53,242 bases of DNA from Escherichia phage CF2. Positions 1 to 53,242 of the stretch are shown piece after piece. The translations under genes and the position numbers were made by a program. The stretch's first letter is position 1, and each line of letters opens with the position of its first letter. Where the stretch lies: the sequence record KY608966, one strand, 5' to 3'. The notes under the pieces are model-generated. The model had not been told where the DNA came from. It ran no database searches and saw only the letters and a program-made list of their open reading frames with translations.

Positions 1-304
1 AAAAAAATTTACGCCGGCGAAAAATAATAAAAAACCGGATTGATAAATAAATCTGTAGACGTTTACACGACCTTTATATAGATGTTATAATAACTATCTA
101 AAGTCCAGCAAAGGTATTGTAATGAATATACAACAGGAAGTACAAGCTGAATTTGATTATGTTGATGGCATGTTGTATCGTAAACATAGCCACGGTAACG
201 TCAAGCAAGGCGATAAATTTGGTACCGTAGTACCAGCAGGATACATTGAAGGCTTTTTCAAAAATAAGAAGACGTCTTTGCACGTTCTTGTCTGGCAATG
301 GCAC
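1..304. repeat. Direct terminal redundancy, left copy (identical to 52939-53242)
   Basis: Exact match of window start to window end (offset 52938); carries a promoter and the first 183 nt of the HNH gene. Confidence 0.9.
62..91 (+). promoter_or_regulatory. sigma70-type promoter (TTTACA-N18-TATAAT) upstream of HNH endonuclease gene
   Basis: Near-consensus -35 and -10 hexamers about 30 nt upstream of the ATG at 122. Confidence 0.5.
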
Positions 305-622
305 AATGGTGAAATACCGGAAGGTTATGTAGTAGACCACAAGGACCGCAATAAACTCAATTGTAAAATTGATAACTTACGCCTTGCTACAGCTAGCCAG
401 AATCAAGCTAATCGTGGGGTTAATTATAATAGTACAACAGGCGTCAAAGGTTTGCAGGTAACAACACAGCGTGGTTATACTTATTATGCTGCTAAGATAA
501 CTGTCAACGGTAAAAGATTGAGAAAAACCTTTAAATATACGGAAGAAGGCAAAGAATTAGCTATTGCCTGGCTTCAAGAACAACGTCAAAAATTACACGG
601 AGAATTTGCTTGTGATAACTAG
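122..622 (+). CDS. HNH homing endonuclease with AP2-like DNA-binding region
   Basis: 166-aa ORF; motif DHKDRNKLNCKIDNLRLATASQNQAN typical of the HNH_3 family. Confidence 0.8.
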   Translation: MNIQQEVQAEFDYVDGMLYRKHSHGNVKQGDKFGTVVPAGYIEGFFKNKKTSLHVLVWQWHNGEIPEGYVVDHKDRNKLNCKIDNLRLATASQNQANRGVNYNSTTGVKGLQVTTQRGYTYYAAKITVNGKRLRKTFKYTEEGKELAIAWLQEQRQKLHGEFACDN

Positions 623-662
623 AGCGTCAATTAGAGCGAAAGGACAGAACTTTGAGCGCAAA

Positions 663-1052
663 ATGGCTAAGAAGTTCAATAGCTCGTTTGGATTAACTGT
701 TGAGCGCAATCTTCAACAGTCTATTAATGGCGGGGATGACTTGCTGGGTGTACCGTTTTTCAGTGTTGAACTGAAGAAGCACAATACTAAGTCTATCGGA
801 ACATGGTGGAGACAGTGTGCGGCATCGGCAAAGGCTCAGAACAAGATGCCAGTGCTTATATACGAACTACCAAGAAAACAGCCTACCGTGGTGATGAATA
901 AGGCTGATGTGATTGACTGTTTTCCAAGTGGCACGACTTTTAACGAGGCATCGAACCGCCTCTTTGTGGGTCTGGTAGAATTAACATGGGAACAATTTTG
1001 CCGGGTCTACAACTATTACGTTGCGCCCGGCACTCAATATCACGTCAATTAA
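663..1052 (+). CDS. Putative VRR-NUC-like PD-(D/E)xK nuclease
   Basis: ORF 564-1052 is called from a TTG; first ATG at 663; motif GGDDLLGVPFFSVELKK resembles the VRR-NUC PDL...fvEvK signature. Confidence 0.45.
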   Translation: MAKKFNSSFGLTVERNLQQSINGGDDLLGVPFFSVELKKHNTKSIGTWWRQCAASAKAQNKMPVLIYELPRKQPTVVMNKADVIDCFPSGTTFNEASNRLFVGLVELTWEQFCRVYNYYVAPGTQYHVN

Positions 1053-1234
1053 TCTTGTTTCAGCTCGTTACAAATAACACGCTGATTTTTGGCGGGGATA
1101 ATACCAAGATTCAGTAGGGTGTATGGACTATCAGCGACGCATTGTTCAACGGTAGTCCATTCAGGTTTGGATTCAACAATTTCGTAATTGCAGTCGTGAG
1201 TTGCTATACATGTTGCCAGGATTAAGCCAATCAC
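1049..1234 (-). CDS. Hypothetical small early protein (61 aa)
   Basis: ORF track; GTG start overlaps the stop of the upstream gene (GTGA). Confidence 0.5.
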   Translation of the reverse strand: MIGLILATCIATHDCNYEIVESKPEWTTVEQCVADSPYTLLNLGIIPAKNQRVICNELKQD

Positions 1235-1410
1235 AAGTAATCTCCATCAACCAGAAACTCAAACAATTGGTTGTAAACGTTGCAACCTTTAGCGAAAGAG
1301 CTTTCAGCAGGTTTACCGTCGCGGACAATCATCATATACTCACCGCCATGGATGTCCACCCAGTATTGCATGCCACCTTTGACCGGATTACGTTGCAGAA
1401 ATTTAAACAT
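1231..1410 (-). CDS. Hypothetical small early protein (59 aa, MFKFLQRNPVKGG...)
   Basis: Hand-translated; below the ORF-track length cutoff; ATG overlaps upstream stop as TAATG; SD-like GGAGTCAGGAG upstream. Confidence 0.45.
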   Translation of the reverse strand: MFKFLQRNPVKGGMQYWVDIHGGEYMMIVRDGKPAESSFAKGCNVYNQLFEFLVDGDYL

Positions 1411-1655
1411 TATTTACTCCTGACTCCAAGTTTATTCAATAGCCACACTGTCATGTCAACCCAGGTTAACGGTACAGTTTTCGGGGGTTGATAATCCCAG
1501 CAGCTTGCAGTTCTTTGTATTTCTGCTTGGCGCCGCTCCGCTTCGCGTAATACCGCATCGTCAGAAGTGCCGGCAGAAAAAAGATCGGTAACACCAGATA
1601 AATCGCGTTGATTAACACGTCGAGCAATGTCATATAAATCATCCTTAGAAAACAT
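1410..1655 (-). CDS. Hypothetical early protein (81 aa); an alternative embedded frame exists
   Basis: 81-codon ORF, stop coupled to next gene via TAATG; no obvious SD; overlapping frame 1466-1633 has a better SD. Confidence 0.4.
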   Translation of the reverse strand: MFSKDDLYDIARRVNQRDLSGVTDLFSAGTSDDAVLREAERRQAEIQRTASCWDYQPPKTVPLTWVDMTVWLLNKLGVRSK

Positions 1656-1770
1656 AAGCCAATACCATAAGAATTATCAGAAAGATCCCAACCAGCTTCC
1701 TCATAGCCCGACCTTCAGCATATGCAGGATTCACAACAGAATACTCAACAACATGTTTACAGCGGACCAT
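1645..1770 (-). CDS. Hypothetical small membrane protein (41 aa, MVRCKHVVEYS...LVGIFLIILMVLAYVF)
   Basis: Hand-translated; GGAGG 5 nt upstream of ATG; C-terminal hydrophobic helix. Confidence 0.35.
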   Translation of the reverse strand: MVRCKHVVEYSVVNPAYAEGRAMRKLVGIFLIILMVLAYVF

Positions 1771-1831
1771 AAGGCCTCCACTTGTGGGTTAATTCAATCA
1801 TGAGGACTTTTGGCAAATCCTCATTGTTGAA

Positions 1832-2032
1832 TCACTCAATCATTATCTGTACTACTATTATACACTCTTTATTGAAGCGGGTAAACACCTTTCCACCATT
1901 GGTGCGTTTAGCTCCGGACTTTAGAGCTGACTGGCACCAGACATGCCACTCCTCAACTGTCAAGAATTTTTGCTCAGCTTTGGGTGGTAGTCCATTGGCA
2001 AGGTCTACCGTAGTAAATTTGACTAGTGGCAT
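1832..2032 (-). CDS. Hypothetical early protein
   Basis: ORF track; ATG overlaps upstream stop (TGATG). Confidence 0.5.
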   Translation of the reverse strand: MPLVKFTTVDLANGLPPKAEQKFLTVEEWHVWCQSALKSGAKRTNGGKVFTRFNKECIIVVQIMIE

Positions 2033-2421
2033 CACTTGACCTCAAATTTTGACTCGTCATATTCCGGATCAGTCACGTCCCGGGTCGCACAATTTTTGAT
2101 TGCATCCCAGTAACGTTGGGCATCATCGCCATCGACATAAACTGTCCAGTGGCCGTAACCACCTTCAAATCTGTCCCAGGCTTGTTCCCAGACTTTGCCA
2201 TCTTCCAGCTTGTACCAAGTTGGACGACTGTCAAACTCGCGGATTGGATGGTACCCCATCAAAGGATTCATCAGGTCAATAATGTCTTCCCGACTAATCT
2301 CCTGGTTCTCCCACAACACCGTCATGAATTGCTCAAACTTGAAGGCGTTTGGCAGAATTTTGATGACTTCACCATCACAATATACGGTATAGGTGCCATC
2401 TTCGCATTTTGCACTGTACAT
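2032..2421 (-). CDS. Hypothetical early protein (129 aa from internal ATG)
   Basis: ORF track 2032-2454; internal ATG at 2421 is preceded by AGGAGAGAGAAAC; the upstream ATG lies inside the conserved leader element. Confidence 0.6.
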   Translation of the reverse strand: MYSAKCEDGTYTVYCDGEVIKILPNAFKFEQFMTVLWENQEISREDIIDLMNPLMGYHPIREFDSRPTWYKLEDGKVWEQAWDRFEGGYGHWTVYVDGDDAQRYWDAIKNCATRDVTDPEYDESKFEVK

Positions 2422-2440
2422 GTTTCTCTCTCCTATTGAT

Positions 2441-2492
2441 ATAATTTCAATCATGAACTATCACAACTTTGGATAGTTCATTGTTGAAACTA
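2441..2492 (-). promoter_or_regulatory. Conserved early-operon stem-loop/leader element, copy a
   Basis: 10-bp arms ATGAACTATC/GATAGTTCAT flanked by TTTCAA/TTGAAA, followed on the mRNA strand by GATTGAAATTAT and SD AGGAGAGA. Confidence 0.4.
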
Positions 2493-2663
2493 TACTAACT
2501 TTGTTGCGATCTGAATTGTCAGCCGGAAGTCTTCCATCAAGTTATCAAACTCTTTGGAACCGCCAACCGCATCAGATATTTGGTCTTTCACAATTTGGGC
2601 ATTTGATTCCAGTAATTCAATCAGGTGCGCCAATTCGTCTTCAGTCAATTTCAGATCTTTCAT
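2490..2663 (-). CDS. Hypothetical small acidic early protein (57 aa)
   Basis: ATG at 2663 with SD GGTGGA; overlaps upstream stop. Confidence 0.55.
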   Translation of the reverse strand: MKDLKLTEDELAHLIELLESNAQIVKDQISDAVGGSKEFDNLMEDFRLTIQIATKLV

Positions 2664-2917
2664 AATGCATCCACCCAAGCCATAACTTTTGCCAGTCTTA
2701 CAACGTCTTCATGGTCCCGCTCGCCATCAGAAAATTCGCTGGCGATGATACCCATAATTGACGCCAGATTCATGTTGATGATGTAGGCGTGTTGGCGCAC
2801 TTCATCAATTCCTGAATCTATCACCAGTTCCGCAAATTCTTGTGAACCTTCATCCCATTCAGCCCAATACTGCTCAGCATAAAAGTCCAGTTCTTTTTTC
2901 ATCTCAATATCAGTCAT
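2660..2917 (-). CDS. Hypothetical acidic early protein (85 aa)
   Basis: ORF track; SD GAGGAG upstream of ATG. Confidence 0.6.
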   Translation of the reverse strand: MTDIEMKKELDFYAEQYWAEWDEGSQEFAELVIDSGIDEVRQHAYIINMNLASIMGIIASEFSDGERDHEDVVRLAKVMAWVDAL

Positions 2918-2922
2918 TTTGA

Positions 2923-3078
2923 TTACTCCTCAGAACCTGAAAATTTGTCGTCAATGGCTTCAACAATATAATCAAGAGTTGAAGTGTGAGAACTATCAGA
3001 AAAAGTGCCCATCTTCTCTAACTCAATCATCATATCCCGCAAGGCCATCGCCTGGTCTTTGGTCAGTTTGATTTTAAG
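2923..3078 (-). CDS. Hypothetical small early protein (51 aa from internal ATG)
   Basis: ORF track 2923-3123 starts at GTG inside hairpin; ATG at 3078 follows AGGAGAGAAAC. Confidence 0.5.
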   Translation of the reverse strand, partial: LKIKLTKDQAMALRDMMIELEKMGTFSDSSHTSTLDYIVEAIDDKFSGSEE

Positions 3079-3102
3079 CATGTTTCTCTCCTGTTGATTG
3101 TG

Positions 3103-3150
3103 AATAATTTCAATTGATGGCACTACTTGAGTGCCATCTCAAAAATTACT
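3103..3150 (-). promoter_or_regulatory. Conserved early-operon stem-loop/leader element, copy b
   Basis: 9-bp arms GATGGCACT/AGTGCCATC; followed on the mRNA strand by AATTGAAATTATT and SD AGGAGAGA. Confidence 0.4.
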
Positions 3151-3718
3151 CTTCAGTAGTTTCTTGTTCTTCAATTTCAGGTTTTTCTTCAGCTTCAGGT
3201 TTTTTGCCTGTTACTGATTTGCCGTCAGTCACTTTACCAGATTTTACATCATTACGGTAGTATGACATATATGACTGGATAACACGTTTTGCTCTAATAT
3301 CATCCGCTTCCATTCCGCAAGCTTTCATCGCATCAGCGAGTGCCAATTTGGAATCTTCTTTATCCATCAAGTTGTAATCTTTGAACACCAGATAGCAAGT
3401 ATCTTTAGTTGATGGACCAGATGACGATTTGCGAGAGCCACCAGCAGATGCTCGTGTTGTCGCAACTTTGACTTCTTCAACTTCCAGTTGGTTCAGCTCG
3501 TCAAACAAAGCCTTCACCAGCACTTCTTTAGAGTCTTTGACACTTACAGAACTTTCATCATTAAGCGACTTAATCATCTTAATGATCTGGTTATTGGCAA
3601 AGTACTGAAGACTATCCATCTGCACTACAATAGTGCCAAGACTTTCAGTAGTCAGACCAGATTTCACAGACTCGACAGAAAAAGCGGAAGTCAGGTAAAC
3701 GTAGTTGATAGTTGTCAT
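3146..3718 (-). CDS. Hypothetical early protein (190 aa) with acidic Glu/Lys-rich C-terminus
   Basis: ORF track; SD GAGGA upstream of ATG. Confidence 0.65.
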   Translation of the reverse strand: MTTINYVYLTSAFSVESVKSGLTTESLGTIVVQMDSLQYFANNQIIKMIKSLNDESSVSVKDSKEVLVKALFDELNQLEVEEVKVATTRASAGGSRKSSSGPSTKDTCYLVFKDYNLMDKEDSKLALADAMKACGMEADDIRAKRVIQSYMSYYRNDVKSGKVTDGKSVTGKKPEAEEKPEIEEQETTEE

Positions 3719-3769
3719 TTGATGTATCCTCGTTGATAGAATTTTTGATAGGTGTCAATCCTTGACAAG

Positions 3770-3815
3770 TAATTCCAATCATGACAACTTTTATCAAGTT
3801 GTCATTGTTGGAAAT
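3770..3815 (-). promoter_or_regulatory. Conserved early-operon stem-loop/leader element, copy c
   Basis: 10-bp arms ATGACAACTT/AAGTTGTCAT flanked by TTTCCAACA and GATTGGAATTA. Confidence 0.4.
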
Positions 3816-4117
3816 TACTTCGCGCTTGCGTTTTCAACAGCTTGTACGACTTTCAACAAATGCCTGAAGTCATCATGATAAACTTCATTAAAGCCATCTG
3901 CCGCAAAGTTTTCGCCAATTAAGATCAGTCTTTCGCGGACCAAGTCAATCAAGAGTTTATTGTCAGTTATTTCAGCACCTGTAATAAGTTCAACAAATAA
4001 TTGCTGTACGTTATCATAACAGATGTTGCTTTCAATACACACTTGGCGCATGTCTTCAACTATTGACATGATTGTGACTTGCATTTCTACGTCAGAAGTG
4101 ATGTTATTCAGTTTCAT
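3815..4117 (-). CDS. Hypothetical acidic early protein (100 aa)
   Basis: ORF track; SD AAGG upstream; first gene of the leftward early operon. Confidence 0.65.
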   Translation of the reverse strand: MKLNNITSDVEMQVTIMSIVEDMRQVCIESNICYDNVQQLFVELITGAEITDNKLLIDLVRERLILIGENFAADGFNEVYHDDFRHLLKVVQAVENASAK

Positions 4118-4140
4118 AATAGTTACCTTTGTATTAGTTT

Positions 4141-4333: not shown

Positions 4334-4362
4334 ATTATAGGCCAGTCAATCAATGTTGTACA
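4334..4362 (-). promoter_or_regulatory. Candidate leftward early promoter (TGTACA-N17-TATAAT)
   Basis: Reverse complement of ATTATA at 4334-4339 and TGTACA at 4357-4362; weak -35. Confidence 0.3.
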
Positions 4363-4858: not shown

Positions 4859-4887
4859 TGTACTTTCTCTCCTCCACGCGCTATCAT
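4859..4887 (+). promoter_or_regulatory. Candidate rightward promoter (TGTACT-N17-TATCAT)
   Basis: Hexamers at the expected spacing ~50 nt upstream of the first rightward gene. Confidence 0.3.
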
Positions 4888-7715: not shown

Positions 7716-7744
7716 TTTACTTACTTCGCGTAACTCGTTATAAT
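7716..7744 (+). promoter_or_regulatory. sigma70-type promoter (TTTACT-N17-TATAAT) for the packaging/head genes
   Basis: Hexamers at 7716-7721 and 7739-7744. Confidence 0.55.
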
Positions 7745-11088: not shown

Positions 11089-11117
11089 TTTACTTTCGGT
11101 TTACCTGGCTATATAAT
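11089..11117 (+). promoter_or_regulatory. sigma70-type promoter (TTTACT-N17-TATAAT) before scaffold/capsid genes
   Basis: Hexamers at 11089-11094 and 11112-11117. Confidence 0.55.
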
Positions 11118-12955: not shown

Positions 12956-12975
12956 CCCACAAACGGGACTAACAA

Positions 12976-13008
12976 AAGGCGAGCTGACGAGCTCGCCTTT
13001 TTTTATTT
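12976..13008 (+). terminator. Rho-independent terminator after the capsid gene
   Basis: GGCGAGC/GCTCGCC stem followed by TTTTTTTTATTT. Confidence 0.7.
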
Positions 13009-13034
13009 ACACGTATAAAGTTCTGGTATATAAT
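13006..13034 (+). promoter_or_regulatory. Consensus sigma70 promoter (TTTACA-N17-TATAAT)
   Basis: Hexamers at 13006-13011 and 13029-13034, upstream of the gene at 13061. Confidence 0.6.
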
Positions 13035-18463: not shown

Positions 18464-18492
18464 TTTACTTAACCGAGGCGCCAGCCTATAAT
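18464..18492 (+). promoter_or_regulatory. sigma70-type promoter (TTTACT-N17-TATAAT) with the -10 inside a hairpin
   Basis: Hexamers at 18464-18469 and 18487-18492; inverted repeat GCGCCAGC/GCTGGCGC flanks the -10. Confidence 0.55.
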
Positions 18493-21329: not shown

Positions 21330-21358
21330 TTTACTTGGTTAAACTTACTGAGTATAAT
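21330..21358 (+). promoter_or_regulatory. sigma70-type promoter (TTTACT-N17-TATAAT) for the tail genes
   Basis: Hexamers at 21330-21335 and 21353-21358, enclosed by inverted repeat GGCCAT/ATGGCC. Confidence 0.55.
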
Positions 21359-32723: not shown

Positions 32724-32752
32724 TTTCTTTTACGCTTGAGTCGTGCTATAAT
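32724..32752 (+). promoter_or_regulatory. Candidate promoter (TTTCTT-N17-TATAAT) for the lysis cassette
   Basis: Consensus -10 at 32747-32752; weak -35. Confidence 0.35.
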
Positions 32753-33875: not shown

Positions 33876-34077
33876 TAAGCCTGAAGTTGTTTATGTTGAC
33901 AGGGTAGTCAAGGTTTATCCGCCTGGTGCGTACCTGGTTAAATGCCATAAGCCTGAATTAACAGGTAACACCTGGAAGGCAATAGGTCAGTTAGCTATTG
34001 AACGTGGAACAGCTCTTGATGATTGTGCAGACAAGATGGACAGCATAATTAACTGGAGTAACAAAGGGGCCGAGTGA
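33802..34077 (+). CDS. o-spanin (Rz1-like lipoprotein), partly embedded in the i-spanin gene
   Basis: Signal peptide with lipobox-like LPFLNSC; start inside the Rz-like gene in another frame. Confidence 0.55.
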   Translation: MTKRQNMIRALIPLLLLPFLNSCADKPEVVYVDRVVKVYPPGAYLVKCHKPELTGNTWKAIGQLAIERGTALDDCADKMDSIINWSNKGAE

Positions 34078-34094
34078 TGGCCCCTTTATTTATT
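34064..34094. terminator. Bidirectional rho-independent terminator at the strand switch
   Basis: GGGGCC/GGCCCC hairpin flanked by a T-run on each strand. Confidence 0.6.
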
Positions 34095-34317
34095 AGCGTT
34101 TTCCTTTCAGCTCGTTATACTGCGCACATGCAGCACACAGCACTGTACCGGGTAAAAGCTGACGTCGTTTTTCTTCAATGTCTTCCCCACACTGGTAGCA
34201 CGTCAGCGGGCTTACTCCGGTGTATCTTACTCTGTTCGATAGTGCTGCGTCCCGGGCAACTTGTTCAGCTTCAGAAGCCATATCAGTAATGTCCGATGTG
34301 CGCATAGTCTCAATCAT
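34093..34317 (-). CDS. TraR/DksA-family C4 zinc-finger protein
   Basis: 74 aa; CYQC...(17)...CAAC spacing typical of TraR/DksA C-terminal zinc fingers. Confidence 0.6.
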   Translation of the reverse strand: MIETMRTSDITDMASEAEQVARDAALSNRVRYTGVSPLTCYQCGEDIEEKRRQLLPGTVLCAACAQYNELKGKR

Positions 34318-37600: not shown

Positions 37601-38485
37601 TTATACGGCCATTTGGAGTTTGATGTTCGGCATTGGTTTGTACTTCTCAACCATTGGCGCAACATCGGCAGGAGTGAAGTCAAATACTGACACGTCGTAA
37701 ATCGCGTTAATGTCAGGACGGCCTTCAAAGTTAGTGTCCAGGGTAGAATCAGAATTGCTTACGATACGTTGCAGGAAAATCTTTGCCGCGTCGATATGAT
37801 TCTGATAGATGTGATAATCACCCAGCGTAACAGTCATGTCGCCAACACCAGTGCCCAGCTCAGCAGCAATGGTAATCTGCAACATCTGATGAAGCAGGAT
37901 GTCATGTGGCAGACCAAGGATAACGTCCGCACTACGCATATGGAACATCAGCTCTAATTCATTACGGTTGTTAATGAACAGCTGAAAACCATGGTAACAA
38001 GGCGGAAGGGCCATGGCGTCCATCTCTTGTGGGTTCCATGCCGTAATGTATGCCCGGCGGTCAGTAGGCTTAACCTTCAACGTTTCAATAACGTCTTTAA
38101 GCTGGTTAGTAAGAACACCATTCTTATAGAAAGGCTTAACCCATTGTACGCCGTATACAGGACCTAAGTCACGGTTGTCTGGTGTACCCCAACGTTTGTT
38201 TGCGTCTTGCAGGTTACCTTCCCACCAGTTGCAGCCAAAGCCTTTGAGCGTGTCGACGTTTGAAATGCCGTTTATAAAGCAATAGAGCTCAGCAGCAACA
38301 GCTTTGATGTTAACAGGTTTAAACACAGGCACCATCAGTTTGTTGTCGTTGAAAGCCAGCTTAAATGCTGTACCAAAACAACGGCGGGTACCAACACCTG
38401 TACGGTCTACAACATCCTCACCTTTACGCAGGATAAAAGAAATGATGTCGCTGTAAAGAGAATCGATAGTGCTGTATGTTTTCAT
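37601..38485 (-). CDS. Thymidylate-synthase-family pyrimidine C5 transferase with Asp at the substrate-specifying position
   Basis: DRTGVGT, DLGPVYGVQW, ALPPCYHGFQ and RSADVILGLPHD align to ThyA; LPFN of ThyA is LPHD here. Confidence 0.8.
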   Translation of the reverse strand: MKTYSTIDSLYSDIISFILRKGEDVVDRTGVGTRRCFGTAFKLAFNDNKLMVPVFKPVNIKAVAAELYCFINGISNVDTLKGFGCNWWEGNLQDANKRWGTPDNRDLGPVYGVQWVKPFYKNGVLTNQLKDVIETLKVKPTDRRAYITAWNPQEMDAMALPPCYHGFQLFINNRNELELMFHMRSADVILGLPHDILLHQMLQITIAAELGTGVGDMTVTLGDYHIYQNHIDAAKIFLQRIVSNSDSTLDTNFEGRPDINAIYDVSVFDFTPADVAPMVEKYKPMPNIKLQMAV

Positions 38486-39489: not shown

Positions 39490-39518
39490 ATTATACCACA
39501 TCACTCTCTAGTGGTAAA
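39490..39518 (-). promoter_or_regulatory. sigma70-type promoter (TTTACC-N17-TATAAT), leftward
   Basis: Reverse complements at 39513-39518 and 39490-39495. Confidence 0.55.
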
Positions 39519-40656: not shown

Positions 40657-40685
40657 AATATACGTCATTTAAAAGAGTGTGTAAA
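40657..40685 (-). promoter_or_regulatory. sigma70-type promoter (TTTACA-N17-TATATT), leftward
   Basis: Reverse complements at 40680-40685 and 40657-40662. Confidence 0.5.
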
Positions 40686-42619: not shown

Positions 42620-42648
42620 ATTATACCACTTCCTTGTGGTGATGTATA
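42620..42648 (-). promoter_or_regulatory. Candidate promoter (TATACA-N17-TATAAT), leftward
   Basis: Reverse complements at 42643-42648 and 42620-42625. Confidence 0.4.
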
Positions 42649-44678: not shown

Positions 44679-44708
44679 ATTATACGCCACTTTTTATCAT
44701 GGCGTAAA
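44679..44708 (-). promoter_or_regulatory. sigma70-type promoter (TTTACG-N18-TATAAT), leftward
   Basis: Reverse complements at 44703-44708 and 44679-44684. Confidence 0.5.
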
Positions 44709-45828: not shown

Positions 45829-45888
45829 ATTCTCTCTCCTCATGTGTATAGATGTATTATACACCACTTACATGGGGTAAGTACACTA

Positions 45889-47289: not shown

Positions 47290-47403
47290 TTCTTGTTTCC
47301 TTGTATACCAGTTTGATTGTATGCCAGAGTTATTCCCTGCGCATGTGCTTTATTGCTTAACCGTTAAAGACATTATATCATTAGTGAGTGGTGACGTACA
47401 CAC

Positions 47404-48882: not shown

Positions 48883-49153
48883 CAGTTGTTTCCTCAGGTT
48901 GCATGTGCATAGTTGCACCAATTAGTAGACAATAGTTATTGAACATTGTACGTAGTGCCTGGCCCGCAACAATATCCGTTATGTCTATTATACCACTTTT
49001 AGTGGTGACGCGTAAAGCTTTTTCTTTCTTTGTTTTTTCCACGAATGCAATGCTGATGATTTCTTCCGCATGAATTACGTGGATAGTACCTGCAAACTCA
49101 CCAGTCTTAGCTGGTGCCTGGTACACTAACGACATAGACGGTTGGTTACTCAC
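48785..49153 (-). CDS. Hypothetical protein; 3' boundary uncertain
   Basis: GTG start after SD AGGAG; 3' end overlaps the next gene in another frame. Confidence 0.35.
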   Translation of the reverse strand: MSNQPSMSLVYQAPAKTGEFAGTIHVIHAEEIISIAFVEKTKKEKALRVTTKSGIIDITDIVAGQALRTMFNNYCLLIGATMHMQPEETTDGIEPTRTGIDGHGTAVRQAGESEPLDGTSES

Positions 49154-49632: not shown

Positions 49633-49661
49633 ATTATGTATATAAAGGAGGGGAAAGTAAA
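49633..49661 (-). promoter_or_regulatory. sigma70-type promoter (TTTACT-N17-CATAAT) driving the leftward replication operon
   Basis: Reverse complements at 49656-49661 and 49633-49638; divergent from promoter at 49695. Confidence 0.5.
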
Positions 49662-49694
49662 TAGATATAAATGTATAAAATACATAAAAGTCTA

Positions 49695-49724
49695 TTTACT
49701 CTGGTTTAATAACGTGTATATAAT
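49695..49724 (+). promoter_or_regulatory. sigma70-type promoter (TTTACT-N18-TATAAT), rightward
   Basis: Hexamers at 49695-49700 and 49719-49724. Confidence 0.55.
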
Positions 49725-49754: not shown

Positions 49755-50087
49755 ATGATAAAGCCAAAACTGTTGCGGCATATTCGCAACGGTATTAAGC
49801 TACTCGCCGAAGGCAATGAATATGCCTGCAAGCAACGCGGTATTACAAAAGTCGGCCTGTTCAATAAAGAGTTACCGACTCGCTACTTTACCAAATCACC
49901 ATTAACACTCGTACCTGCAGCGGAGTATTATAAAGACCCCGAAGCAGCTCGGGCTAAAATCAAGGAAGGTCTTGACCGACTTGTAGAGGAAGGCTATTTG
50001 ACAGTACGTCAACACACTGAATCATCTTATTACTACAAGCCAACTTCTAAGGTAACCAGCAATGACAATGACGAGTCAGCCGAGTGA
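49755..50087 (+). CDS. Hypothetical protein (110 aa)
   Basis: ORF track; SD AGAGGAGAGA upstream. Confidence 0.55.
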   Translation: MIKPKLLRHIRNGIKLLAEGNEYACKQRGITKVGLFNKELPTRYFTKSPLTLVPAAEYYKDPEAARAKIKEGLDRLVEEGYLTVRQHTESSYYYKPTSKVTSNDNDESAE

Positions 50088-52596
50088 TATTCTCGGTCTG
50101 AAATACTTTAAGCCAGAAGGGATTCCACAAGTCTTCAAAGATATGAAGCGCTGGGCTATTTTTGAGCTGACGTACGAAGACGAGACTCTCGAAGTTCAAT
50201 CCAAACCTAAGAAACCTGCAAGAGCGCCATCAGGCCGTTCCTTCAGCACAACAGTGCCTGAAGAGTGGATGACTTTCGACGACGCCCTGACACGTTGTAT
50301 CCGCAATCGTGAAATGAAGATTAAAGCTGTACAGGGTAACATCACCTTTGTGCCGGCTTTGATTGTTCCTCGCCAGTGGTACTTTGTTGACCTGGACAAC
50401 CATGAAGATAATCCAGACATTGAAGCTACCCACAAAGCGATAATTGAGGGTACCCGTGGTGCTTATGCAGAGACGTCAATCTCTGGCAAAGGTCAACACA
50501 TCGCAATCCCTTTACCCTGGACCGCAGCAACATCTAAAGAGAAAGACGACCAGCTGGACATCAAAATCCAGAAGGCTGAGATGTTCCTGGTAATGACAGG
50601 CAATGTGTTGAGTGAGTTCAATGCTAATCCTGTTTCAGCCCGTGAATGGCATGCAGCAATTGAGAAGTTCTTTCTTGAATCAAGCGCACCTGATATTGAT
50701 GTTGAGTTTGAGCAAGACGAAGACCGTGGCGAAGAGTATGACAAAGAGCTGTACGAACAGTTAGCCGACAATACTCGCTGGGCCTTAGAACACTATCTGA
50801 ATGAACATGCACCAGACGGTGTTGGTGTGAGTAATGACGGTTCCGAACGTTTAAGCCGCATACTCAAAGACTTGCTTCGTGTAACCCGTAACTATGAAGT
50901 TACACAACGCATCTTCATGGCCAGCAAAGCTGCAGCATACGAAGGTCGCAGACCAAGCCGACACAACTTGTCTGTTGACAAGTACCACCAGTGGTTCAGC
51001 CGTGTTGGTAAGACTGTGCTGAAAGAGATGCAACGTGACGGCTTATTCGTTAAGACCAAGTTTGCTCTTGACATCAACAAAGAGTTAGCCAAGAATTCAG
51101 GTGTCTCCCTGGCTGAGAACGTTGAGTTCAAGGTCAACGACGACATTCTGCCTTCTGATGTATTCGTCAGGACGGCTCCGTCCGGGTTTAAACGGCTTAT
51201 TGCTGAGATACAGGATAACATATCTCCGGCTAACAGGGTTAACGACTATGCAATCGGCACAGCTCTTAACATACTGAGCAACTGCGCCGGTCGCAAGTAT
51301 GTTTGTCCAGTAGGCGGTCATGCTAACTTCCTGGTAACCAACATCATTCTTGTGGGTGGTTCATCAATCGGTAAATCCCTGTATACCGAAATGTTCCCAC
51401 AAATCCAGGCAAGTGTGCCAGACACATCGCCTATCAGCCTTAACCGTATCCCAAGGGAACAGACTTTTGCAACCAGGACGTTTGCTGAACTGATGTCCAA
51501 CCCGTCATACCATTCAGTCCAGTTGTTCTACCCTGAATTTGGTCTGGCTTTAGGTTCAGGCTTACGCATGAATCCTAACAACCCGGACAACTTTCAGAAA
51601 GCTCTGATGGACGCTTCAACCAAGCGTAAGGTTGGCGGTATACTGACAGGTATCAAACGTGCTAATGCTGACAATGATGTCAAGACAGTAAGCGAACCGT
51701 GTTACTCTATCCTGGGTGACTCCACTCAAGAGCTTATCCTTGACAACACCCGGAAGCAAGACTTCTCAAGTGGCTTTTTGCCCCGCTTCCTGTTCATCCC
51801 GAACTACGAACGAGCGGAGTTTGCCAAACCTGAGAAGGTAGGACGTCGCCAGCAGATTCGCCGTACGTCCTTTTCAAAGGAGCTGATTGAGAAGCTGGAA
51901 GCAATCGCTTATGTGAATGCTATCCCGCCTAACGGTAAACTAAGGCACGACCCGATTCCTATTTACGATGAGTCGGACGATGATGACTTCCTGTACGAGT
52001 ACCAGTGCAATATTAATGACATGCGCCAGTATTACAGGGACAACGAAGTAGCATCTGCCTTTGTGGGCCGAATGGGTGAGTATGTATTCAATATAGCAGC
52101 ACTGATTGGCTTACTCGACAACTGGGATGCTCCTGTAATGACCAGGGACAACATCGAATGGGCTTACAAATACGTTCTTCGTTGTATAACCGCCTGGGTC
52201 AATAACACAAGCAGAATAGTCGCACCTCCGACTACCAACGCTGAAGTAGTTGACGGCTTCCTCAAAGTCTACAGGGACATTTTGGCCCTTTACGCCAAAA
52301 GCGGATGGAACGGTATTGTTAAGCATTATCCTGAGGGTGTTGTGAGAAGTATTCGAGAAGAACACCTCCAGATGAATGGTTTAAGCATATATGCTATTCG
52401 TCAATCTTTAAGCTGGTTTAAATCAAATTATGGTTTTAATATCACGGCTAATAATAAAGTCATTGACGGAATGCTACAGGACATGATTGACCAGGACTAT
52501 TTAGCGGTTCAAATATATAAGCCCACAAGAGGCCGAACTGCTAACATTTACTGCCTGACAGAGCGAGGATATGACACTGCTAAGAAACTAAAATAA
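50062..52596 (+). CDS. Primase-helicase (PrimPol-like N-terminal domain fused to a P-loop NTPase/helicase)
   Basis: 844 aa; N-terminal RWAIFEL...WMTFDDA...YFVDLDNH resembles the prim-pol fold; Walker A VGGSSIGKS. Confidence 0.75.
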   Translation: MTMTSQPSDILGLKYFKPEGIPQVFKDMKRWAIFELTYEDETLEVQSKPKKPARAPSGRSFSTTVPEEWMTFDDALTRCIRNREMKIKAVQGNITFVPALIVPRQWYFVDLDNHEDNPDIEATHKAIIEGTRGAYAETSISGKGQHIAIPLPWTAATSKEKDDQLDIKIQKAEMFLVMTGNVLSEFNANPVSAREWHAAIEKFFLESSAPDIDVEFEQDEDRGEEYDKELYEQLADNTRWALEHYLNEHAPDGVGVSNDGSERLSRILKDLLRVTRNYEVTQRIFMASKAAAYEGRRPSRHNLSVDKYHQWFSRVGKTVLKEMQRDGLFVKTKFALDINKELAKNSGVSLAENVEFKVNDDILPSDVFVRTAPSGFKRLIAEIQDNISPANRVNDYAIGTALNILSNCAGRKYVCPVGGHANFLVTNIILVGGSSIGKSLYTEMFPQIQASVPDTSPISLNRIPREQTFATRTFAELMSNPSYHSVQLFYPEFGLALGSGLRMNPNNPDNFQKALMDASTKRKVGGILTGIKRANADNDVKTVSEPCYSILGDSTQELILDNTRKQDFSSGFLPRFLFIPNYERAEFAKPEKVGRRQQIRRTSFSKELIEKLEAIAYVNAIPPNGKLRHDPIPIYDESDDDDFLYEYQCNINDMRQYYRDNEVASAFVGRMGEYVFNIAALIGLLDNWDAPVMTRDNIEWAYKYVLRCITAWVNNTSRIVAPPTTNAEVVDGFLKVYRDILALYAKSGWNGIVKHYPEGVVRSIREEHLQMNGLSIYAIRQSLSWFKSNYGFNITANNKVIDGMLQDMIDQDYLAVQIYKPTRGRTANIYCLTERGYDTAKKLK

Positions 52597-52606
52597 GTAA
52601 GTAAAT

Positions 52607-52650
52607 CAAGGGCTTGGGTAATTGTAAAAATCCTAAGCCCTTATTTTTTA
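52607..52650 (+). terminator. Rho-independent terminator after the primase-helicase gene
   Basis: 11-bp stem AAGGGCTTGGG/CCTAAGCCCTT with one G-U pair, 13-nt loop, then ATTTTTT. Confidence 0.7.
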
Positions 52651-52813
52651 AGCTTATTTTACAAACTGATTAATATTTAAACTATAATTAAATATATGGG
52701 CTATAAGAGTATGATTTTATTACTCTTTTACTAACCATAATATATGGGCTCCTTATAAAAGATTAAGGGGGTAAAAAAGGGGGATACAAGACCCGGATAA
52801 AAGGGGGTATATA

Positions 52814-52856
52814 TTTATTTATTATTATTATTATTATTATATATTATTAATTATAT
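52814..52856. repeat. AT-rich tract with (ATT)n microsatellite
   Basis: TTTATTTATTATTATTATTATTATTAT within a ~290-bp AT-rich non-coding stretch next to the terminal repeat. Confidence 0.7.
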
Positions 52857-52938
52857 TAGAAGTAATAAAAACAGCTACTTAGAGGCGTCTATATGTATGA
52901 TCCGGTTTATCTCTTTATTAATATCAGAACCGGATGAA

Positions 52939-53242
52939 AAAAAAATTTACGCCGGCGAAAAATAATAAAAAACCGGATTGATAAATAAATCTGTAGACGT
53001 TTACACGACCTTTATATAGATGTTATAATAACTATCTAAAGTCCAGCAAAGGTATTGTAATGAATATACAACAGGAAGTACAAGCTGAATTTGATTATGT
53101 TGATGGCATGTTGTATCGTAAACATAGCCACGGTAACGTCAAGCAAGGCGATAAATTTGGTACCGTAGTACCAGCAGGATACATTGAAGGCTTTTTCAAA
53201 AATAAGAAGACGTCTTTGCACGTTCTTGTCTGGCAATGGCAC
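52939..53242. repeat. Direct terminal redundancy, right copy (identical to 1-304)
   Basis: Exact duplicate of the window start; cut by the window end. Confidence 0.9.
53060..53242 (+). CDS. Second copy of the 5' end of the HNH endonuclease gene within the terminal repeat (truncated by window end)
   Basis: Identical to 122-304. Confidence 0.5.
   Translation, partial: MNIQQEVQAEFDYVDGMLYRKHSHGNVKQGDKFGTVVPAGYIEGFFKNKKTSLHVLVWQWH

What the first reader, a model, noticed from the sequence alone, without database searches (positions are those of the whole stretch)
1..53242. Whole genome uses host-type sigma70 promoters with a preferred TTTAC(T/A) -35 box and encodes a TraR/DksA-like protein but no RNA polymerase
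At least eight sites match TTTAC(T/A/C/G)-N17/18-TATAAT (7716, 11089, 13006, 18464, 21330, 39490, 44679, 49695), including before late structural genes. No single-subunit RNA polymerase or sigma factor gene is visible. The -35 hexamer differs consistently from TTGACA, which could reflect a host preference or a phage-directed specificity change. The TraR/DksA-like protein (34093-34317) binds the RNA polymerase secondary channel in other systems and could be the temporal regulator.
Basis: partly seen in the sequence, partly recalled or inferred. Interest (0 to 1): 0.45.

Follow-up and report, generated by a model that had tools for sequence, protein, structure and literature searches.

The report
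T4-style host promoters in Rosemountvirus
This Salmonella/E. coli phage has no RNA polymerase of its own and runs its genes from about 19 strong host-type promoters of the kind known from phage T4 early genes; most of this was already published for close relatives, but the odd T in place of G in the -35 box tracks with chemically modified cytosine in the phage DNA, which is a new and testable idea.

Summary
TTTACN-N17/18-TATAAT occurs 12 times against 0.07 expected (11 unique sites; two lie in a 304-bp terminal repeat). A relaxed scan gives about 18 gene-proximal, co-oriented promoters with a T-N-TAC -35, plus one extended -10 promoter before the holin. None uses TTGAC. The window is a Rosemountvirus (98% to Salmonella phage BP63). 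In four diverged relatives the orthologous promoters keep the -35 core (144/144) and the -10 (213/216), while spacers drift to 64% identity. No RNA polymerase, sigma factor, anti-sigma factor or ADP-ribosyltransferase was found. The 74-aa protein is a TraR homologue with DxxDxA and a C4 zinc finger.

The architecture matches T4 early promoters (A-rich UP-like region, GTTTAC, GTGG-TATAAT). "Host preference" is refuted, because E. coli phages RB49, RB43 and T5 keep G at -33.

New here: the clade's "thymidylate synthase" carries Asp at the pyrimidine-specificity residue, like T4 dCMP hydroxymethylase. T at -33 co-occurs with such enzymes in all nine genomes that have one; three of four genomes lacking one prefer TTGAC, and KVP40 was uninformative. 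TraR-like proteins more likely shut down host rRNA promoters than switch on late genes.

The parts
62..91 (+). Promoter TTTACA-N18-TATAAT (TGn present) upstream of the HNH endonuclease ORF and RusA. Lies in the terminal redundancy and is repeated at 53000-53029.
1857..1885 (-). Promoter (G)TTTACC-N17-TATAAT inside the 3' end of a small early ORF, 87 nt upstream of the next early gene.
   Evidence: conserved in ZCSE2
4334..4362 (-). Promoter TGTACA-N17-TATAAT, the leftward member of the divergent control region 4118-4937.
4859..4887 (+). Promoter AAAAAGTGG-TGTACT-N17-TATCAT for the nucleotide-metabolism operon. Identical core in all five lineages.
7716..7744 (+). Promoter TTTACT-N17-TATAAT before the terminase operon. 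GC-rich discriminator; embedded in inverted repeat 7734-7766.
11089..11117 (+). Promoter cTA-TTTACT-N17-TATAAT before the scaffold and major capsid genes.
12974..13001 (+). Rho-independent terminator after the major capsid gene. Its T-run runs into the next -35; compensatory changes in relatives.
13006..13034 (+). Promoter TTTACA-N17-TATAAT before the head-tail adaptor operon.
18464..18492 (+). Promoter TTTACT-N17-TATAAT before the Ig-domain structural genes. The -10 sits in the loop of covarying inverted repeat 18478-18502.
21330..21358 (+). Promoter TTTACT-N17-TATAAT before the tail sheath gene. Bracketed by inverted repeat 21323-21364.
32744..32752 (+). Extended -10 promoter candidate TGCTATAAT before the holin/lysis cassette, directly after a covarying terminator hairpin (~32691-32731). 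The only candidate without T-N-TAC at proper spacing.
   Evidence: conserved in ZCSE2
34063..34087 (.). Bidirectional terminator between the convergent lysis operon and replication operon.
34093..34317 (-). TraR/DksA-family protein, 74 aa, with DxxDxA (D9, D12, A14) and C4 zinc finger (C40, C43, C61, C64). Last gene of the replication operon, translationally coupled (TAATG) to the upstream ORF.
37601..38485 (-). ThyA homologue annotated as thymidylate synthase, with Asp195 at the pyrimidine-specificity position (PHD instead of PFN). Candidate dCMP C5-modifying enzyme.
39490..39518 (-). Promoter AAAAAGTGC-TTTACC-N17-(TGG)TATAAT, preceded by terminator 39546-39573.
40657..40685 (-). Promoter AAAAAAGGTG-TTTACA-N17-TATATT (TGTACA in relatives).
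42620..42648 (-). Promoter AAAAG-TATACA-N17-(TGG)TATAAT before the helicase. Spacer TCACCACAAGGAAGTGG is 15/17 identical to a T4 early promoter spacer.
44679..44708 (-). Promoter AAAAGTG-TTTACG-N18-TATAAT before the SSB gene.
45856..45885 (-). Promoter TGTACT-N18-TATAAT.
47372..47400 (-). Promoter AATAAGTG-TGTACG-N17-(TGA)TATAAT.
48987..49016 (-). Promoter AAAAAGC-TTTACG-N18-(TGG)TATAAT.
49633..49661 (-). Promoter TCTA-TTTACT-N17-CATAAT, the leftward member of a symmetric divergent pair.
49695..49724 (+). Promoter TCTA-TTTACT-N18-TATAAT before g75 and the primase gene, the rightward member of the divergent pair.

Best explanation
The window is a Rosemountvirus-type virulent myophage that transcribes all its modules with unmodified host RNA polymerase-sigma70. 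It does so from about 19 strong promoters of the T4-early type: an A-rich proximal UP-like tract at about -45 to -40, (G)T(T/G)TAC as the -35 element, a 17-18 bp spacer often ending in GTGG/TGn, and a consensus TATAAT. It encodes no RNA polymerase or sigma factor. The invariant T in place of G at -33 is a selected, clade-wide feature. It is not a host preference. It co-occurs with C5-modified cytosine DNA, as it does in T4, RB69 and 44RR. The TraR homologue, made from the replication operon, most probably binds the polymerase secondary channel and shuts down host rRNA and r-protein promoters, releasing polymerase for the phage promoters. It probably does not act as a dedicated late-gene activator. 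Shown here: the motif, its statistics, its placement and its conservation; the absence of detectable RNAP or sigma homologues; and the TraR family features. Inferred: use by host holoenzyme, the role of TraR, and the link to DNA modification.
For: Motif statistics and placement: 12 matches vs 0.07 expected, and about 18 co-oriented sites 27-217 nt upstream of gene starts. Clade-wide use: TTTAC and TGTAC are the top 5-mers 16-18 nt upstream of TATAAT in six genomes, with zero TTGAC. Purifying selection: -35 core 144/144 and -10 213/216 identical across orthologues, against spacer 64% and flanks about 50%. T4 likeness: the published T4 consensus is GTTTAC at -36 to -31 with an A-rich -40 to -44 and a GT-rich stretch 5' of -12 (PMC1524935), and T4 early promoters are used by unmodified host polymerase (PMC2988021). 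My own count on T4 1-50 kb gives TTTAC 6, GTTTA 6, TTGAC 0, with a near-identical spacer. Host holoenzyme recognises TTTACA (lacP, PMC2613000). No RNAP, sigma, anti-sigma or ART domain in Pfam or PHROGs, and the same conclusion was published for S144 (PMC7432712). TraR: Pfam 6e-10, PHROG 54, PDB TraR 6N57 at 1.3e-6, DxxDxA and C4 conserved in four orthologues. Phage TraR homologues inhibit rrnB P1 and require DxxDxA, and lambda promoters are barely activated (PMC9239242). Modification link: the ThyA homologue has Asp at the N177-equivalent position, invariant in the clade and aligned with T4 gp42 D179. S144 DNA is cut only by the AT-only-site enzymes SspI and PacI, and fHy-Eco03 DNA only by ScaI. 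TTTAC is enriched and TTGAC is near or only modestly above background in all nine genomes with such an enzyme (JS98 is mixed, 8 vs 5). TTGAC is enriched in three of the four T4-type genomes without one, KVP40 gives no signal, and T5 uses TTGCT.
Against: There are no transcription start-site or expression data for any clade member, so every promoter is a prediction. Structural-gene promoters look as constitutive as early ones, so the model does not explain timing. About 30 small ORFs belong to clade-specific families of unknown function, and any of them could be an RNA polymerase modifier. The TraR-like protein has a 6-residue N-terminal extension, and its DxxDxA lies 2-3 residues closer to the zinc finger than in TraR. 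It scores below the NCBIfam TraR-subfamily cut-off (52.7 vs 59.7 bits), and its orthologue was not flagged as toxic in a cloning screen. The modification correlation is confounded within T4-type phages, because motA, alc and denB co-distribute with gene 42. It rests on few independent lineages. JS98 is mixed and KVP40 is uninformative. The C at -31 stays invariant, so any effect of modified cytosine would have to be position-specific.
Confidence: 0.7

Rival explanations
1. The TraR-like protein is the temporal switch. As it accumulates from the replication operon, it directly and differentially changes initiation at phage promoters, activating or de-repressing the structural-gene promoters. 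This is the reading of the first reader and of the S144 authors.
For: Structural-module promoters form a distinguishable sub-class. They have GC-richer discriminators (about 4.4/7 vs 2.1/7, P about 0.003, conserved across lineages), lack the A-tract/GTG upstream element, and have 'cTA' before TTTACT. Discriminator composition is what DksA/TraR-type factors sense (own knowledge; PMC9239242 describes the kinetic classes). T5 early and late sigma70 promoters also differ mainly in the discriminator and respond to an RNAP-binding phage protein (PMC7472727). The gene position, last in the replication operon, fits a delayed product.
Against: GC-rich discriminators are characteristic of promoters that TraR/DksA inhibit, not activate, so the expected sign is wrong for a late activator. 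Lambda Orf73 activated lambda pL only 1.4-fold and left pR and pR' unaffected (PMC9239242). TraR homologues are described there as accessory, not essential. No experiment exists for this clade.
Confidence: 0.2
2. The T at -33 is simply strength tuning or lineage history. With a perfect -10, a UP-like tract and often TGn, a perfect TTGACA would bind too tightly and slow promoter escape. Each phage lineage has therefore fixed its own one-mismatch -35 variant, and TTTAC has nothing to do with DNA chemistry.
For: T5, which also depends entirely on host sigma70, uses a different single-variant -35, TTGCT (18 of 78 perfect -10 sites). So lineage-specific near-consensus variants are the norm. TTTACA is a functional -35 on ordinary DNA (lacP, PMC2613000). 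T is, from my own knowledge of promoter compilations, the second most common base at that position. Paralogous promoters share spacer motifs (TCACCAC...AAGTGG), which suggests spread by duplication.
Against: This does not predict why the mismatch falls on the same base in unrelated lineages (T-even phages, 44RR and the Rosemount clade). It does not predict why that base tracks gene-42-type enzymes while RB49, RB43, Aeh1 and T5 keep G. It also does not explain why position 2 is free (T42/G23/A2) while position 3 never reverts in 67 of 68 orthologous sites.
Confidence: 0.3
3. A phage-encoded or co-injected factor re-targets the host polymerase to T-N-TAC, by sigma appropriation, ADP-ribosylation of the alpha subunit as proposed for T4 Alt, or a cryptic sigma. 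Under this reading the motif is a phage-specific promoter, not a plain sigma70 promoter.
For: The conservation profile differs from that of E. coli sigma70 promoters: position 2 is free and position 3 T is invariant. In T4 the -33 T was linked to Alt-modified polymerase (PMC1524935). About 30 orphan ORFs are uncharacterised. One early-region orthologue (fHy-Eco03 Gp05) is toxic to E. coli.
Against: No ART, MotA, AsiA, sigma or anti-sigma domain is detected. The same motif drives the presumed first-expressed genes, which must be read before any phage protein is made. RB49 and Aeh1 carry alt-like genes yet prefer G (PMC1524935). The spacing and the -10 are canonical, and a TTTACA -35 is used by unmodified holoenzyme at lacP (PMC2613000).
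Confidence: 0.07

Closest known systems
Bacteriophage T4 early promoters ('UP/-35/TGn/-10' promoters; consensus GTTTAC at -36 to -31)
   Same: T in place of G at -33, frequent G at -36, an A-rich tract at about -45 to -40, a GT-rich/TGn stretch before a consensus TATAAT, and 17-18 bp spacing (PMC1524935, PMC2988021). One spacer is 15/17 identical to a T4 promoter spacer. Both phages have a gp42-type Asp enzyme and restriction-resistant DNA.
   Different: In T4 this class serves only early genes, and middle and late genes use MotA/AsiA and gp55. Here the same -35/-10 type precedes replication, nucleotide-metabolism and structural operons, and no MotA, AsiA, gp55 or Alt homologue is detectable. 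TGTAC/TATAC variants are common here (7-12 per genome) and rare in T4-type genomes (1-3). The two phages are otherwise unrelated (family A DNA polymerase, a different virion module).
lacP / lacUV5-type sigma70 promoters (-35 TTTACA, 18-bp spacer)
   Same: An identical -35 hexamer and spacing class. lacP -35 TTTACA with an 18-bp spacer is documented in PMC2613000. That lacUV5 pairs it with TATAAT and is activator-independent is from my own knowledge. This shows that no phage factor is needed in principle.
   Different: A single host promoter, not a genome-wide class, and without the UP-like A-tract/GTG element.
F-plasmid TraR and phage TraR homologues (lambda Orf73, P2 Orf82, VP882 Orf61, VHML Orf8)
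   Same: A length of about 73 aa, an N-terminal DxxDxA, a C4 zinc finger and a C-terminal helix region. The best solved-structure match is RNAP-bound TraR (PMC9239242).
   Different: Encoded by a strictly virulent myophage, at the end of a replication operon rather than in a lysogeny or transfer region. It has a 6-residue N-terminal extension (a similar extension was suggested to lower the activity of VHML Orf8), and the motif lies 2-3 residues closer to the zinc finger. It falls below the NCBIfam subfamily cut-off. Function is untested.
Phage S144 / Loughboroughvirus description (Gambino et al. 2020, PMC7432712) and the BP63 RefSeq annotation
   Same: The same gene order. The same statements: no RNAP, 18 host-type promoters, and a DksA C4-type protein proposed to direct late transcription. 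BP63's record annotates at least nine of these promoters and the 'DksA-like zinc-finger protein'.
   Different: Neither source notes the T-N-TAC specificity, the T4-early resemblance or the promoter sub-classes. S144 DNA was shown to be cytosine-modified, but no gene was identified, and the ThyA homologue was read as an ordinary thymidylate synthase.
Bacteriophage T5 transcription (all classes by host sigma70; early and late promoters differ in the discriminator; RNAP-binding gpT5.026)
   Same: A virulent phage that depends wholly on host holoenzyme. Promoter classes are distinguished by the discriminator rather than by the -35/-10 elements (PMC7472727).
   Different: T5's -35 is TTGCT(T/A), with G at the third position. 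No homologue of gpT5.026 was identified here, and T5 has a true thymidylate synthase (GLPFN).

Membership tests
sigma70 -35/-10 promoter class | -10 hexamer close to TATAAT, with A at position 2 and T at position 6 | tested here: met
   15 of 18 T-N-TAC sites have a perfect TATAAT (counting the terminal-repeat pair once); the others are TATCAT, TATATT and CATAAT. 213/216 identical across orthologues.
sigma70 -35/-10 promoter class | -35 hexamer related to TTGACA, 17 +/- 1 bp upstream | tested here: met
   The spacer is 17 or 18 bp in all sites. The -35 matches TTGACA at 3-5 of 6 positions, but never at the G.
sigma70 -35/-10 promoter class | Placement upstream of, and co-oriented with, transcription units | tested here: met
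   Every site is co-oriented with a gene start 27-217 nt downstream. Most are intergenic, and several directly follow terminators.
sigma70 -35/-10 promoter class | Initiation by host Esigma70 at the predicted start sites | not testable with these tools
   No start-site or transcriptome data were found for the clade.
T4-type early promoter | GTTTAC at -36 to -31 (T, not G, at -33) | tested here: met
   T at -33 in all sites and in 67 of 68 orthologous sites. G at -36 in 9 of 18 window sites, and A in most structural-gene sites. The T4 genome gives the same 5-mer enrichment.
T4-type early promoter | A-rich UP-like region at about -40 to -44 | tested here: met
   Columns -9 to -5 relative to the -35 are 57-67% A over 67 sequences. 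The signal is strong in replication and nucleotide-metabolism promoters (5-7 A of 9) and weak in structural ones (0-5).
T4-type early promoter | GT-rich/TGn stretch immediately 5' of the -10 | tested here: inconclusive
   TGn is present at 6 of 18 T-N-TAC sites, and GTGG before TATAAT at several minus-strand sites. It is absent from most structural-gene sites.
T4-type early promoter | Restricted to immediate-early genes, with later classes using MotA/AsiA or gp55 | tested here: not met
   The same promoter type precedes the terminase, capsid, tail and sheath operons. No MotA, AsiA or gp55 homologue was found. So it works like a T4 early promoter but is not part of a T4-like three-class programme.
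TraR family (DksA/TraR C4 zinc-finger secondary-channel regulators) | C4 zinc finger of the dksA/traR type | tested here: met
   Pfam PF01258, 39.3 bits (cut-off 24.9), E=6e-10. C40, C43, C61 and C64 are invariant.
TraR family (DksA/TraR C4 zinc-finger secondary-channel regulators) | N-terminal DxxDxA motif (critical for function per PMC9239242) | tested here: met
   D9-I-T-D12-M-A14 in the window protein. SD(I/V)(T/N/S)DMA is conserved in all four orthologues. Caveat: a 6-residue N-terminal extension and a different register to the zinc finger.
TraR family (DksA/TraR C4 zinc-finger secondary-channel regulators) | Overall similarity to TraR above curated family thresholds | tested here: inconclusive
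   PDB TraR (6N57) E=1.3e-6 over residues 25-72, and PHROG 54 at 2.9e-18. NCBIfam TIGR02419 gives 52.7 bits, below the cut-off of 59.7, and the TraR equivalog gives 32.7 against 108.
TraR family (DksA/TraR C4 zinc-finger secondary-channel regulators) | TraR-like fold (N-helix, globular zinc domain, C-helix) | tested here: inconclusive
   The single-sequence AlphaFold2 model has mean pLDDT 62. Helices at 16-26 and 62-72 are predicted, but confidence is too low for a fold search.
TraR family (DksA/TraR C4 zinc-finger secondary-channel regulators) | Binds RNA polymerase and inhibits rRNA promoters without ppGpp | not testable with these tools
   Requires biochemistry. The orthologue was not flagged as toxic in the fHy-Eco03 cloning screen.
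dCMP-specific ThyA homologues (T4 gp42-type deoxycytidylate C5-modifying enzymes) | Asp at the position of E. coli ThyA Asn177 (determinant of pyrimidine specificity; Hardy & Nalivaika 1992 and Graves et al. 1992, as cited in PMC13326640) | tested here: met
   The window protein has RSADVILGLPHD against RSADLFLGVPFN in thymidylate synthase. Asp195 is invariant in five clade members and aligns with T4 gp42 GFRND.
dCMP-specific ThyA homologues (T4 gp42-type deoxycytidylate C5-modifying enzymes) | Modified cytosine in virion DNA | not testable with these tools
   Published for relatives only: S144 DNA is cut only by SspI and PacI, and fHy-Eco03 DNA only by ScaI. The chemical identity is unknown. 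D169 is retained, so by the criterion of PMC13326640 the enzyme is not a 5-hydroxy-dCMP synthase. L143 is also retained, which hints at a methyl product.

The most novel reading that the evidence does not exclude
The T-for-G replacement at -33 of the -35 hexamer is an adaptation of sigma70 promoters to DNA in which every cytosine carries a C5 substituent. A G:C pair at -33 would place the modified cytosine on the template strand in the major-groove surface read by sigma region 4.2. Phages with such DNA (T-evens, RB69, 44RR and, independently, the Rosemount/Loughborough clade) have therefore converged on (G)TTTAC, whereas relatives and other coliphages with ordinary cytosine keep TTGAC or TTGCT. 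The clade's mis-annotated 'thymidylate synthase' (Asp at the Asn177 position) would be the enzyme that makes the modified dCMP. This would replace the older explanation that links -33 T to T4 Alt ADP-ribosylation.
Probability: 0.3. Interest if true: 0.65.

Novelty: new member of a known kind. Interest (0 to 1): 0.42.

Why it matters
Host-type promoters, the lack of a phage polymerase and a DksA/TraR-type protein are already annotated for BP63 and discussed for S144.

What the analysis adds is threefold. First, the promoters are specifically of the T4-early type and are kept by strong purifying selection across at least five lineages infecting Salmonella, E. coli, Klebsiella and Erwinia. This gives a ready promoter model for annotating and engineering these therapy-candidate phages. 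Second, it shows a virulent phage that appears to run early and late modules from one promoter type, with only discriminator and upstream-element differences. That makes it a compact system for asking how timing is achieved without sigma switching, and what a TraR homologue does in a lytic phage. Third, it offers a candidate gene for the unexplained cytosine modification reported in two genera, and a cross-family correlation suggesting that DNA base modification shapes promoter sequence. If confirmed, that correlation would revise the standard account of why T4 early promoters deviate from consensus.

Tried and rejected
- **RNAP candidate.** I checked the 844-aa ORF at 50062-52596 because of its size. 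It is a primase (PHROG 3022, E=8e-187; weak DUF3987).
- **Co-injected modifier.** I checked the 985-aa virion protein as a possible Alt-like factor. It is a tail protein family member with no enzymatic domain.
- **Generic scan.** The sigma70 consensus scan adds no credible TTGACA-type promoters and is barely above shuffled expectation.
- **k-mer avoidance.** Genome-wide avoidance of TTGAC (for example for restriction avoidance) is rejected: 199 observed vs 192 expected.
- **GC content.** It does not explain T vs G at -33: the groups overlap (34-46% vs 40-43%).
- **Alt explanation.** It is weakened, because no ART is present here while alt-like genes are present in the G-preferring RB49 and Aeh1 (PMC1524935).
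- **RNA genes.** There are no tRNA or Rfam families in the long intergenic gaps.
- **TraR fold.** The single-sequence AlphaFold2 model was too poor (pLDDT 62) for a fold search. Alignments containing loci sequences cannot be submitted to the predictor.
- **Further replicate.** Searching for another independent lineage with the Asp-type enzyme failed. Outside the clade the nearest homologues are ordinary thymidylate synthases at 40% identity or less.
- **KVP40 and JS98.** KVP40 gave no usable -35 signal and JS98 gave a mixed one.
- **Pseudo-protein scan.** My concatenated scan produced artefactual 'Serglycin' hits from the GS linkers, which I ignored. One pack (baseplate, lysis, TraR, g52) was not included in it. 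TraR, g52 and one baseplate ORF were scanned separately, and the rest rely on homology-based annotation in BP63.
- **Site at 2440-2445(+).** The TATAAT there is not conserved in relatives and is rejected as a promoter.

Full report
**Identity of the window.** A 12-kb segment is 96-98% identical to about 40 Salmonella and Escherichia phages of the genus Rosemountvirus, best to Salmonella phage BP63. The first 300+ bases are repeated at the right end, so the promoter at 62 and the one at 53000 are one element counted twice. In the relative fHy-Eco03 the physical terminal repeat is 3.7 kb and holds the whole left early block. The 304-bp redundancy here may therefore be an assembly overlap and not the true terminal repeat. 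I transferred the gene map from BP63 by tblastn. It comprises a leftward block of small early ORFs (1052-4117). A rightward nucleotide-metabolism, packaging, virion and lysis block follows (4938-34077), then a leftward replication block (49601-34093) and a rightward g75-primase unit.

**The observation.** TTTACN-N17/18-TATAAT matches 12 times against 0.07 expected from shuffles. Four matches had been missed. Listing all 47 TATAAT hexamers with their upstream sequence shows no TTGAC at 16-19 bp from any of them. It also reveals further minus-strand sites with TGTAC or TATAC. A scan allowing one mismatch per element, annotated against the gene map, gives about 18 credible sites. All are co-oriented with a gene start 27-217 nt downstream, and nearly all are intergenic. 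The independent consensus scanner ranks the same sites at the top. Its TTGACA hits all have poor -10 hexamers and lie inside genes, and its overall counts barely exceed shuffled expectation. TTGAC is not depleted genome-wide (199 observed, 192 expected). One further candidate, TGCTATAAT at 32744-32752 before the holin, is an extended -10 promoter. It follows a terminator hairpin that covaries in ZCSE2.

**Conservation.** I fetched four diverged relatives: ZCSE2 (Loughboroughvirus), KE25, fHy-Eco03 and Erwinia phage SOI901, with portal identity of 76-86%. In every genome the 5-mers most often found 16-18 bp upstream of TATAAT are TTTAC and TGTAC, and TTGAC scores zero. I located orthologous promoters by aligning their flanks, not by the motif. 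In those sites T-N-TAC is present in 67 of 68 cases. Position 2 is T42/G23/A2, and position 6 is unconstrained. In 36 pairwise comparisons the -35 core is identical at 144/144 positions and the -10 at 213/216. By contrast the spacer is 64% identical, the discriminator 63% and the flanks about 50%. This is purifying selection on the T at -33, not mere shared ancestry.

**What the motif is.** The replication and nucleotide-metabolism promoters read A-tract, G(T/G)G, T(T/G)TAC, a 17-18 bp spacer often ending in GTGG, then TATAAT. Nolan et al. describe the T4 early promoter as GTTTAC at -36 to -31 with an A-rich -40 to -44 and a GT-rich stretch 5' of -12 (PMC1524935). Hinton's review calls these UP/-35/TGn/-10 promoters, used by unmodified host polymerase immediately after infection (PMC2988021). 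Applying my 5-mer count to T4 bases 1-50,000 gives TTTAC 6, GTTTA 6 and TTGAC 0. One T4 promoter (TTTACT TTACCACAAGGATGTGG TATAAT) shares 15 of 17 spacer bases with the window's helicase promoter. Host sigma70 holoenzyme recognises TTTACA as the lacP -35 (PMC2613000). So the promoters work like T4 early promoters. They are not part of a T4-like programme, because the same type also precedes the terminase, capsid, adaptor, Ig-protein and sheath operons.

**No phage polymerase or sigma factor.**
- Pfam scans of the large ORFs, and of about 55 non-structural and minor structural ORFs (scanned as concatenated pseudo-proteins), found no RNA polymerase, sigma, anti-sigma, MotA/AsiA or ADP-ribosyltransferase domain.
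- PHROGs scans of 40 individual ORFs put nearly all hypothetical proteins into clade-specific families of unknown function.
- The 844-aa ORF is a primase, and the 985-aa ORF belongs to a tail-protein family.
- The S144 paper reached the same conclusion. It predicted 18 host-type promoters and proposed that the DksA C4-type protein controls later genes (PMC7432712).
- BP63's RefSeq record annotates at least nine promoters 'similar to TTGACA(N15-18)TATAAT with 2bp mismatch' and a 'DksA-like zinc-finger protein'.

**The TraR-like protein.** It matches Pfam zf-dskA_traR (E=6e-10), PHROG 54 and, among solved structures, RNAP-bound F-plasmid TraR (E=1.3e-6). The higher-ranked C2H2 finger hits reflect cysteine spacing and composition, not homology. 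It has DxxDxA (D9, D12, A14) and four invariant cysteines, all conserved in four orthologues. It differs from TraR by a 6-residue N-terminal extension and a shifted register, and it falls just under the NCBIfam TraR-subfamily cut-off. The gene is the last in the replication operon and overlaps the upstream stop codon (TAATG). A bidirectional terminator follows it. Gopalkrishnan et al. showed that five phage TraR homologues bind RNA polymerase and inhibit rrnB P1 and r-protein promoters, and that they need the DxxDxA aspartates. Lambda Orf73 raises phage yield about fourfold while activating lambda pL only 1.4-fold (PMC9239242). The best-supported role is therefore redistribution of host polymerase, not a late-gene switch. 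In a cloning screen the fHy-Eco03 orthologue was not flagged as toxic.

**Promoter sub-classes.** The five structural-module promoters have GC-richer discriminators than the other thirteen (mean about 4.4 vs 2.1 G+C in 7 nt). Mann-Whitney P is about 0.003-0.005, both in the window and for lineage means. They mostly lack the A-tract/GTG element and carry 'cTA' before TTTACT. Several sit inside inverted repeats that covary between relatives. T5 offers a parallel: its sigma70-dependent early and late promoters differ mainly in the discriminator (PMC7472727). This is the only sequence feature I found that could underlie timing, and it remains unexplained.

**Why T at -33.** Two papers report that DNA of clade members resists restriction. 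S144 DNA is cut only by SspI and PacI, whose sites contain only A and T, and the authors concluded that cytosine is modified but found no gene. fHy-Eco03 DNA is cut only by ScaI among 10 enzymes used; eight are named in the paper's methods. The clade's only ThyA homologue, annotated as thymidylate synthase, reads RSADVILGLPHD where thymidylate synthases read RSADLFLGVPFN. The Asp is invariant in five clade members and aligns with Asp179 of T4 dCMP hydroxymethylase. That position determines pyrimidine specificity (Hardy & Nalivaika 1992; Graves et al. 1992; Liu & Santi, as cited in PMC13326640). By the diagnostics of Lee et al. 2026, the retained D169 argues against a 5-hydroxy-dCMP synthase, and the retained L143 hints at a methyl product. 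Outside the clade the nearest homologues are ordinary synthases at 40% identity or less.

**The cross-phage comparison.** Nolan et al. noted that RB49, RB43 and Aeh1 prefer G at -33, unlike T4. Petrov et al. list gene 42 in the T-evens, RB69, JS98 and 44RR, but not in those three (PMC2993671). I counted TTTAC and TTGAC 16-18 bp upstream of -10 hexamers with one mismatch or fewer, in 40-50 kb of each genome. Expected values are in brackets.
- **Enzyme present:** window 17 (2.0) / 0 (2.2); ZCSE2 12 / 0; SOI901 17 / 0; KE25 14 / 4; fHy-Eco03 16 / 2; T4 17 (7.0) / 2 (3.6); RB69 9 (4.0) / 2; 44RR 9 (1.8) / 2.
- **Enzyme absent:** RB49 2 / 34 (2.7); RB43 3 / 11 (1.5); Aeh1 7 / 11 (2.4).
- **Less clear cases:** JS98 favours T less cleanly, and KVP40 is uninformative.
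- **Control:** T5 has a true synthase (GLPFN) and total dependence on host sigma70. It uses TTGCT, with G at the third position and no TTTAC.

RB49, RB43, T5 and T4 all infect E. coli, so host preference is excluded. Base composition does not separate the groups either.

**Caveats on the comparison.** Within T4-type phages, motA, alc and denB co-distribute with gene 42, so the correlation is confounded there. The Rosemount clade, which has no detectable MotA, AsiA or Alt, is the one independent case that isolates cytosine modification. The mechanistic suggestion is that a modified template-strand cytosine at -33 interferes with reading by sigma region 4.2. This is my inference from remembered structural work and is untested. 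A plain strength-tuning explanation remains about equally likely.

**Verdict.** The motif is a new instance of a known promoter type, and the TraR-like protein is a new member of a known family. The added value lies in three things: the promoter model, the discriminator sub-classes, and the candidate modification enzyme with its possible link to promoter sequence.

Noticed in passing
window 37601-38485 (-): The gene annotated across the clade as thymidylate synthase has Asp (PHD) where true synthases have the dUMP-specifying Asn (PFN). The Asp is invariant in five clade members and aligns with Asp179 of T4 dCMP hydroxymethylase. It is a candidate for the unexplained cytosine modification reported for S144 and fHy-Eco03. 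L143 and D169 are retained, so it may methylate rather than hydroxylate.
   Followed up: yes
window promoters; L002-L005, L008-L016: Across 14 phage genomes, T vs G at the third -35 position tracks presence of a gp42-type dCMP-modifying enzyme, not the host. Nine enzyme-positive genomes favour TTTAC. RB49, RB43 and Aeh1 favour TTGAC, and T5 favours TTGCT. KVP40 is uninformative and JS98 is mixed.
   Followed up: partly
window 7745-7751, 11118-11124, 13035-13041, 18493-18499, 21359-21365: Structural-module promoters have GC-rich discriminators (about 4.4/7 vs 2.1/7 elsewhere, P about 0.003), conserved across lineages, and mostly lack the upstream A-tract/GTG element. This is a possible basis for timing, as in T5.
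   Followed up: partly
window 18478-18502; 7734-7766; 21323-21364: Late promoters are embedded in inverted repeats whose arms covary between relatives (for example GCGCCAGC..GCTGGCGC, CTGCCAGC..GCTGGCA and GTGCCTGC..GCAGGCAC). The -10 lies in the loop or stem. These may be RNA processing or stability hairpins in read-through transcripts, or operators.
   Followed up: no
window 49633-49724 (centre ~49671-49685): The divergent promoter pair is symmetric. Both -35 regions read TCTATTTACT, facing away from a central AT-rich palindrome ATGTATaaaATACAT that is partly conserved in relatives. This is a possible regulator binding site.
   Followed up: no
window 42620-42648 vs T4 (L008) around 2429: The spacer of the helicase promoter (TCACCACAAGGAAGTGG) is 15/17 identical to that of a T4 early promoter (TTACCACAAGGATGTGG). 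Several early promoters here share TCACCAC...AAGTGG, an inverted CCAC..GTGG within the spacer.
   Followed up: no
window ~2453-2481: A hairpin, ATGAACTATC-N9-GATAGTTCAT, lies between two small early ORFs and is conserved in BP63, ZCSE2, SOI901 and fHy-Eco03, although the flanking sequence diverges. Its function is unknown.
   Followed up: no
window 122-622 (+): A 166-aa HNH_3 homing endonuclease ORF lies just inside the left end, upstream of RusA. It has no counterpart among BP63's annotated genes.
   Followed up: partly
window 1-304 and 52939-53242: The terminal redundancy is only 304 bp, whereas fHy-Eco03 has a 3.7-kb direct terminal repeat covering the whole left early block, and S144's ends map to the gap corresponding to ~4118-4937. 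The window's ends may be an assembly overlap and not the physical termini.
   Followed up: no
window 39656-40140: A 485-bp stretch has no annotated gene, tRNA or Rfam hit, at the position where Erwinia phage SOI901 carries tRNA-Gln and tRNA-Pro.
   Followed up: partly
window 8000-20000 (PP583539.1): A record named 'Listeria phage 220426122051' (host Listeria monocytogenes) is 97% identical over 12 kb to this Salmonella/E. coli phage group. The host assignment is probably a contaminant or a mislabel.
   Followed up: no
window 12974-13034; ~32691-32752; 39518-39573: Terminator-promoter cassettes. A strong hairpin with a T-run is followed at once by a promoter (the T-run merges into the -35 at 13006), and the stems show compensatory changes in relatives.
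   Followed up: partly
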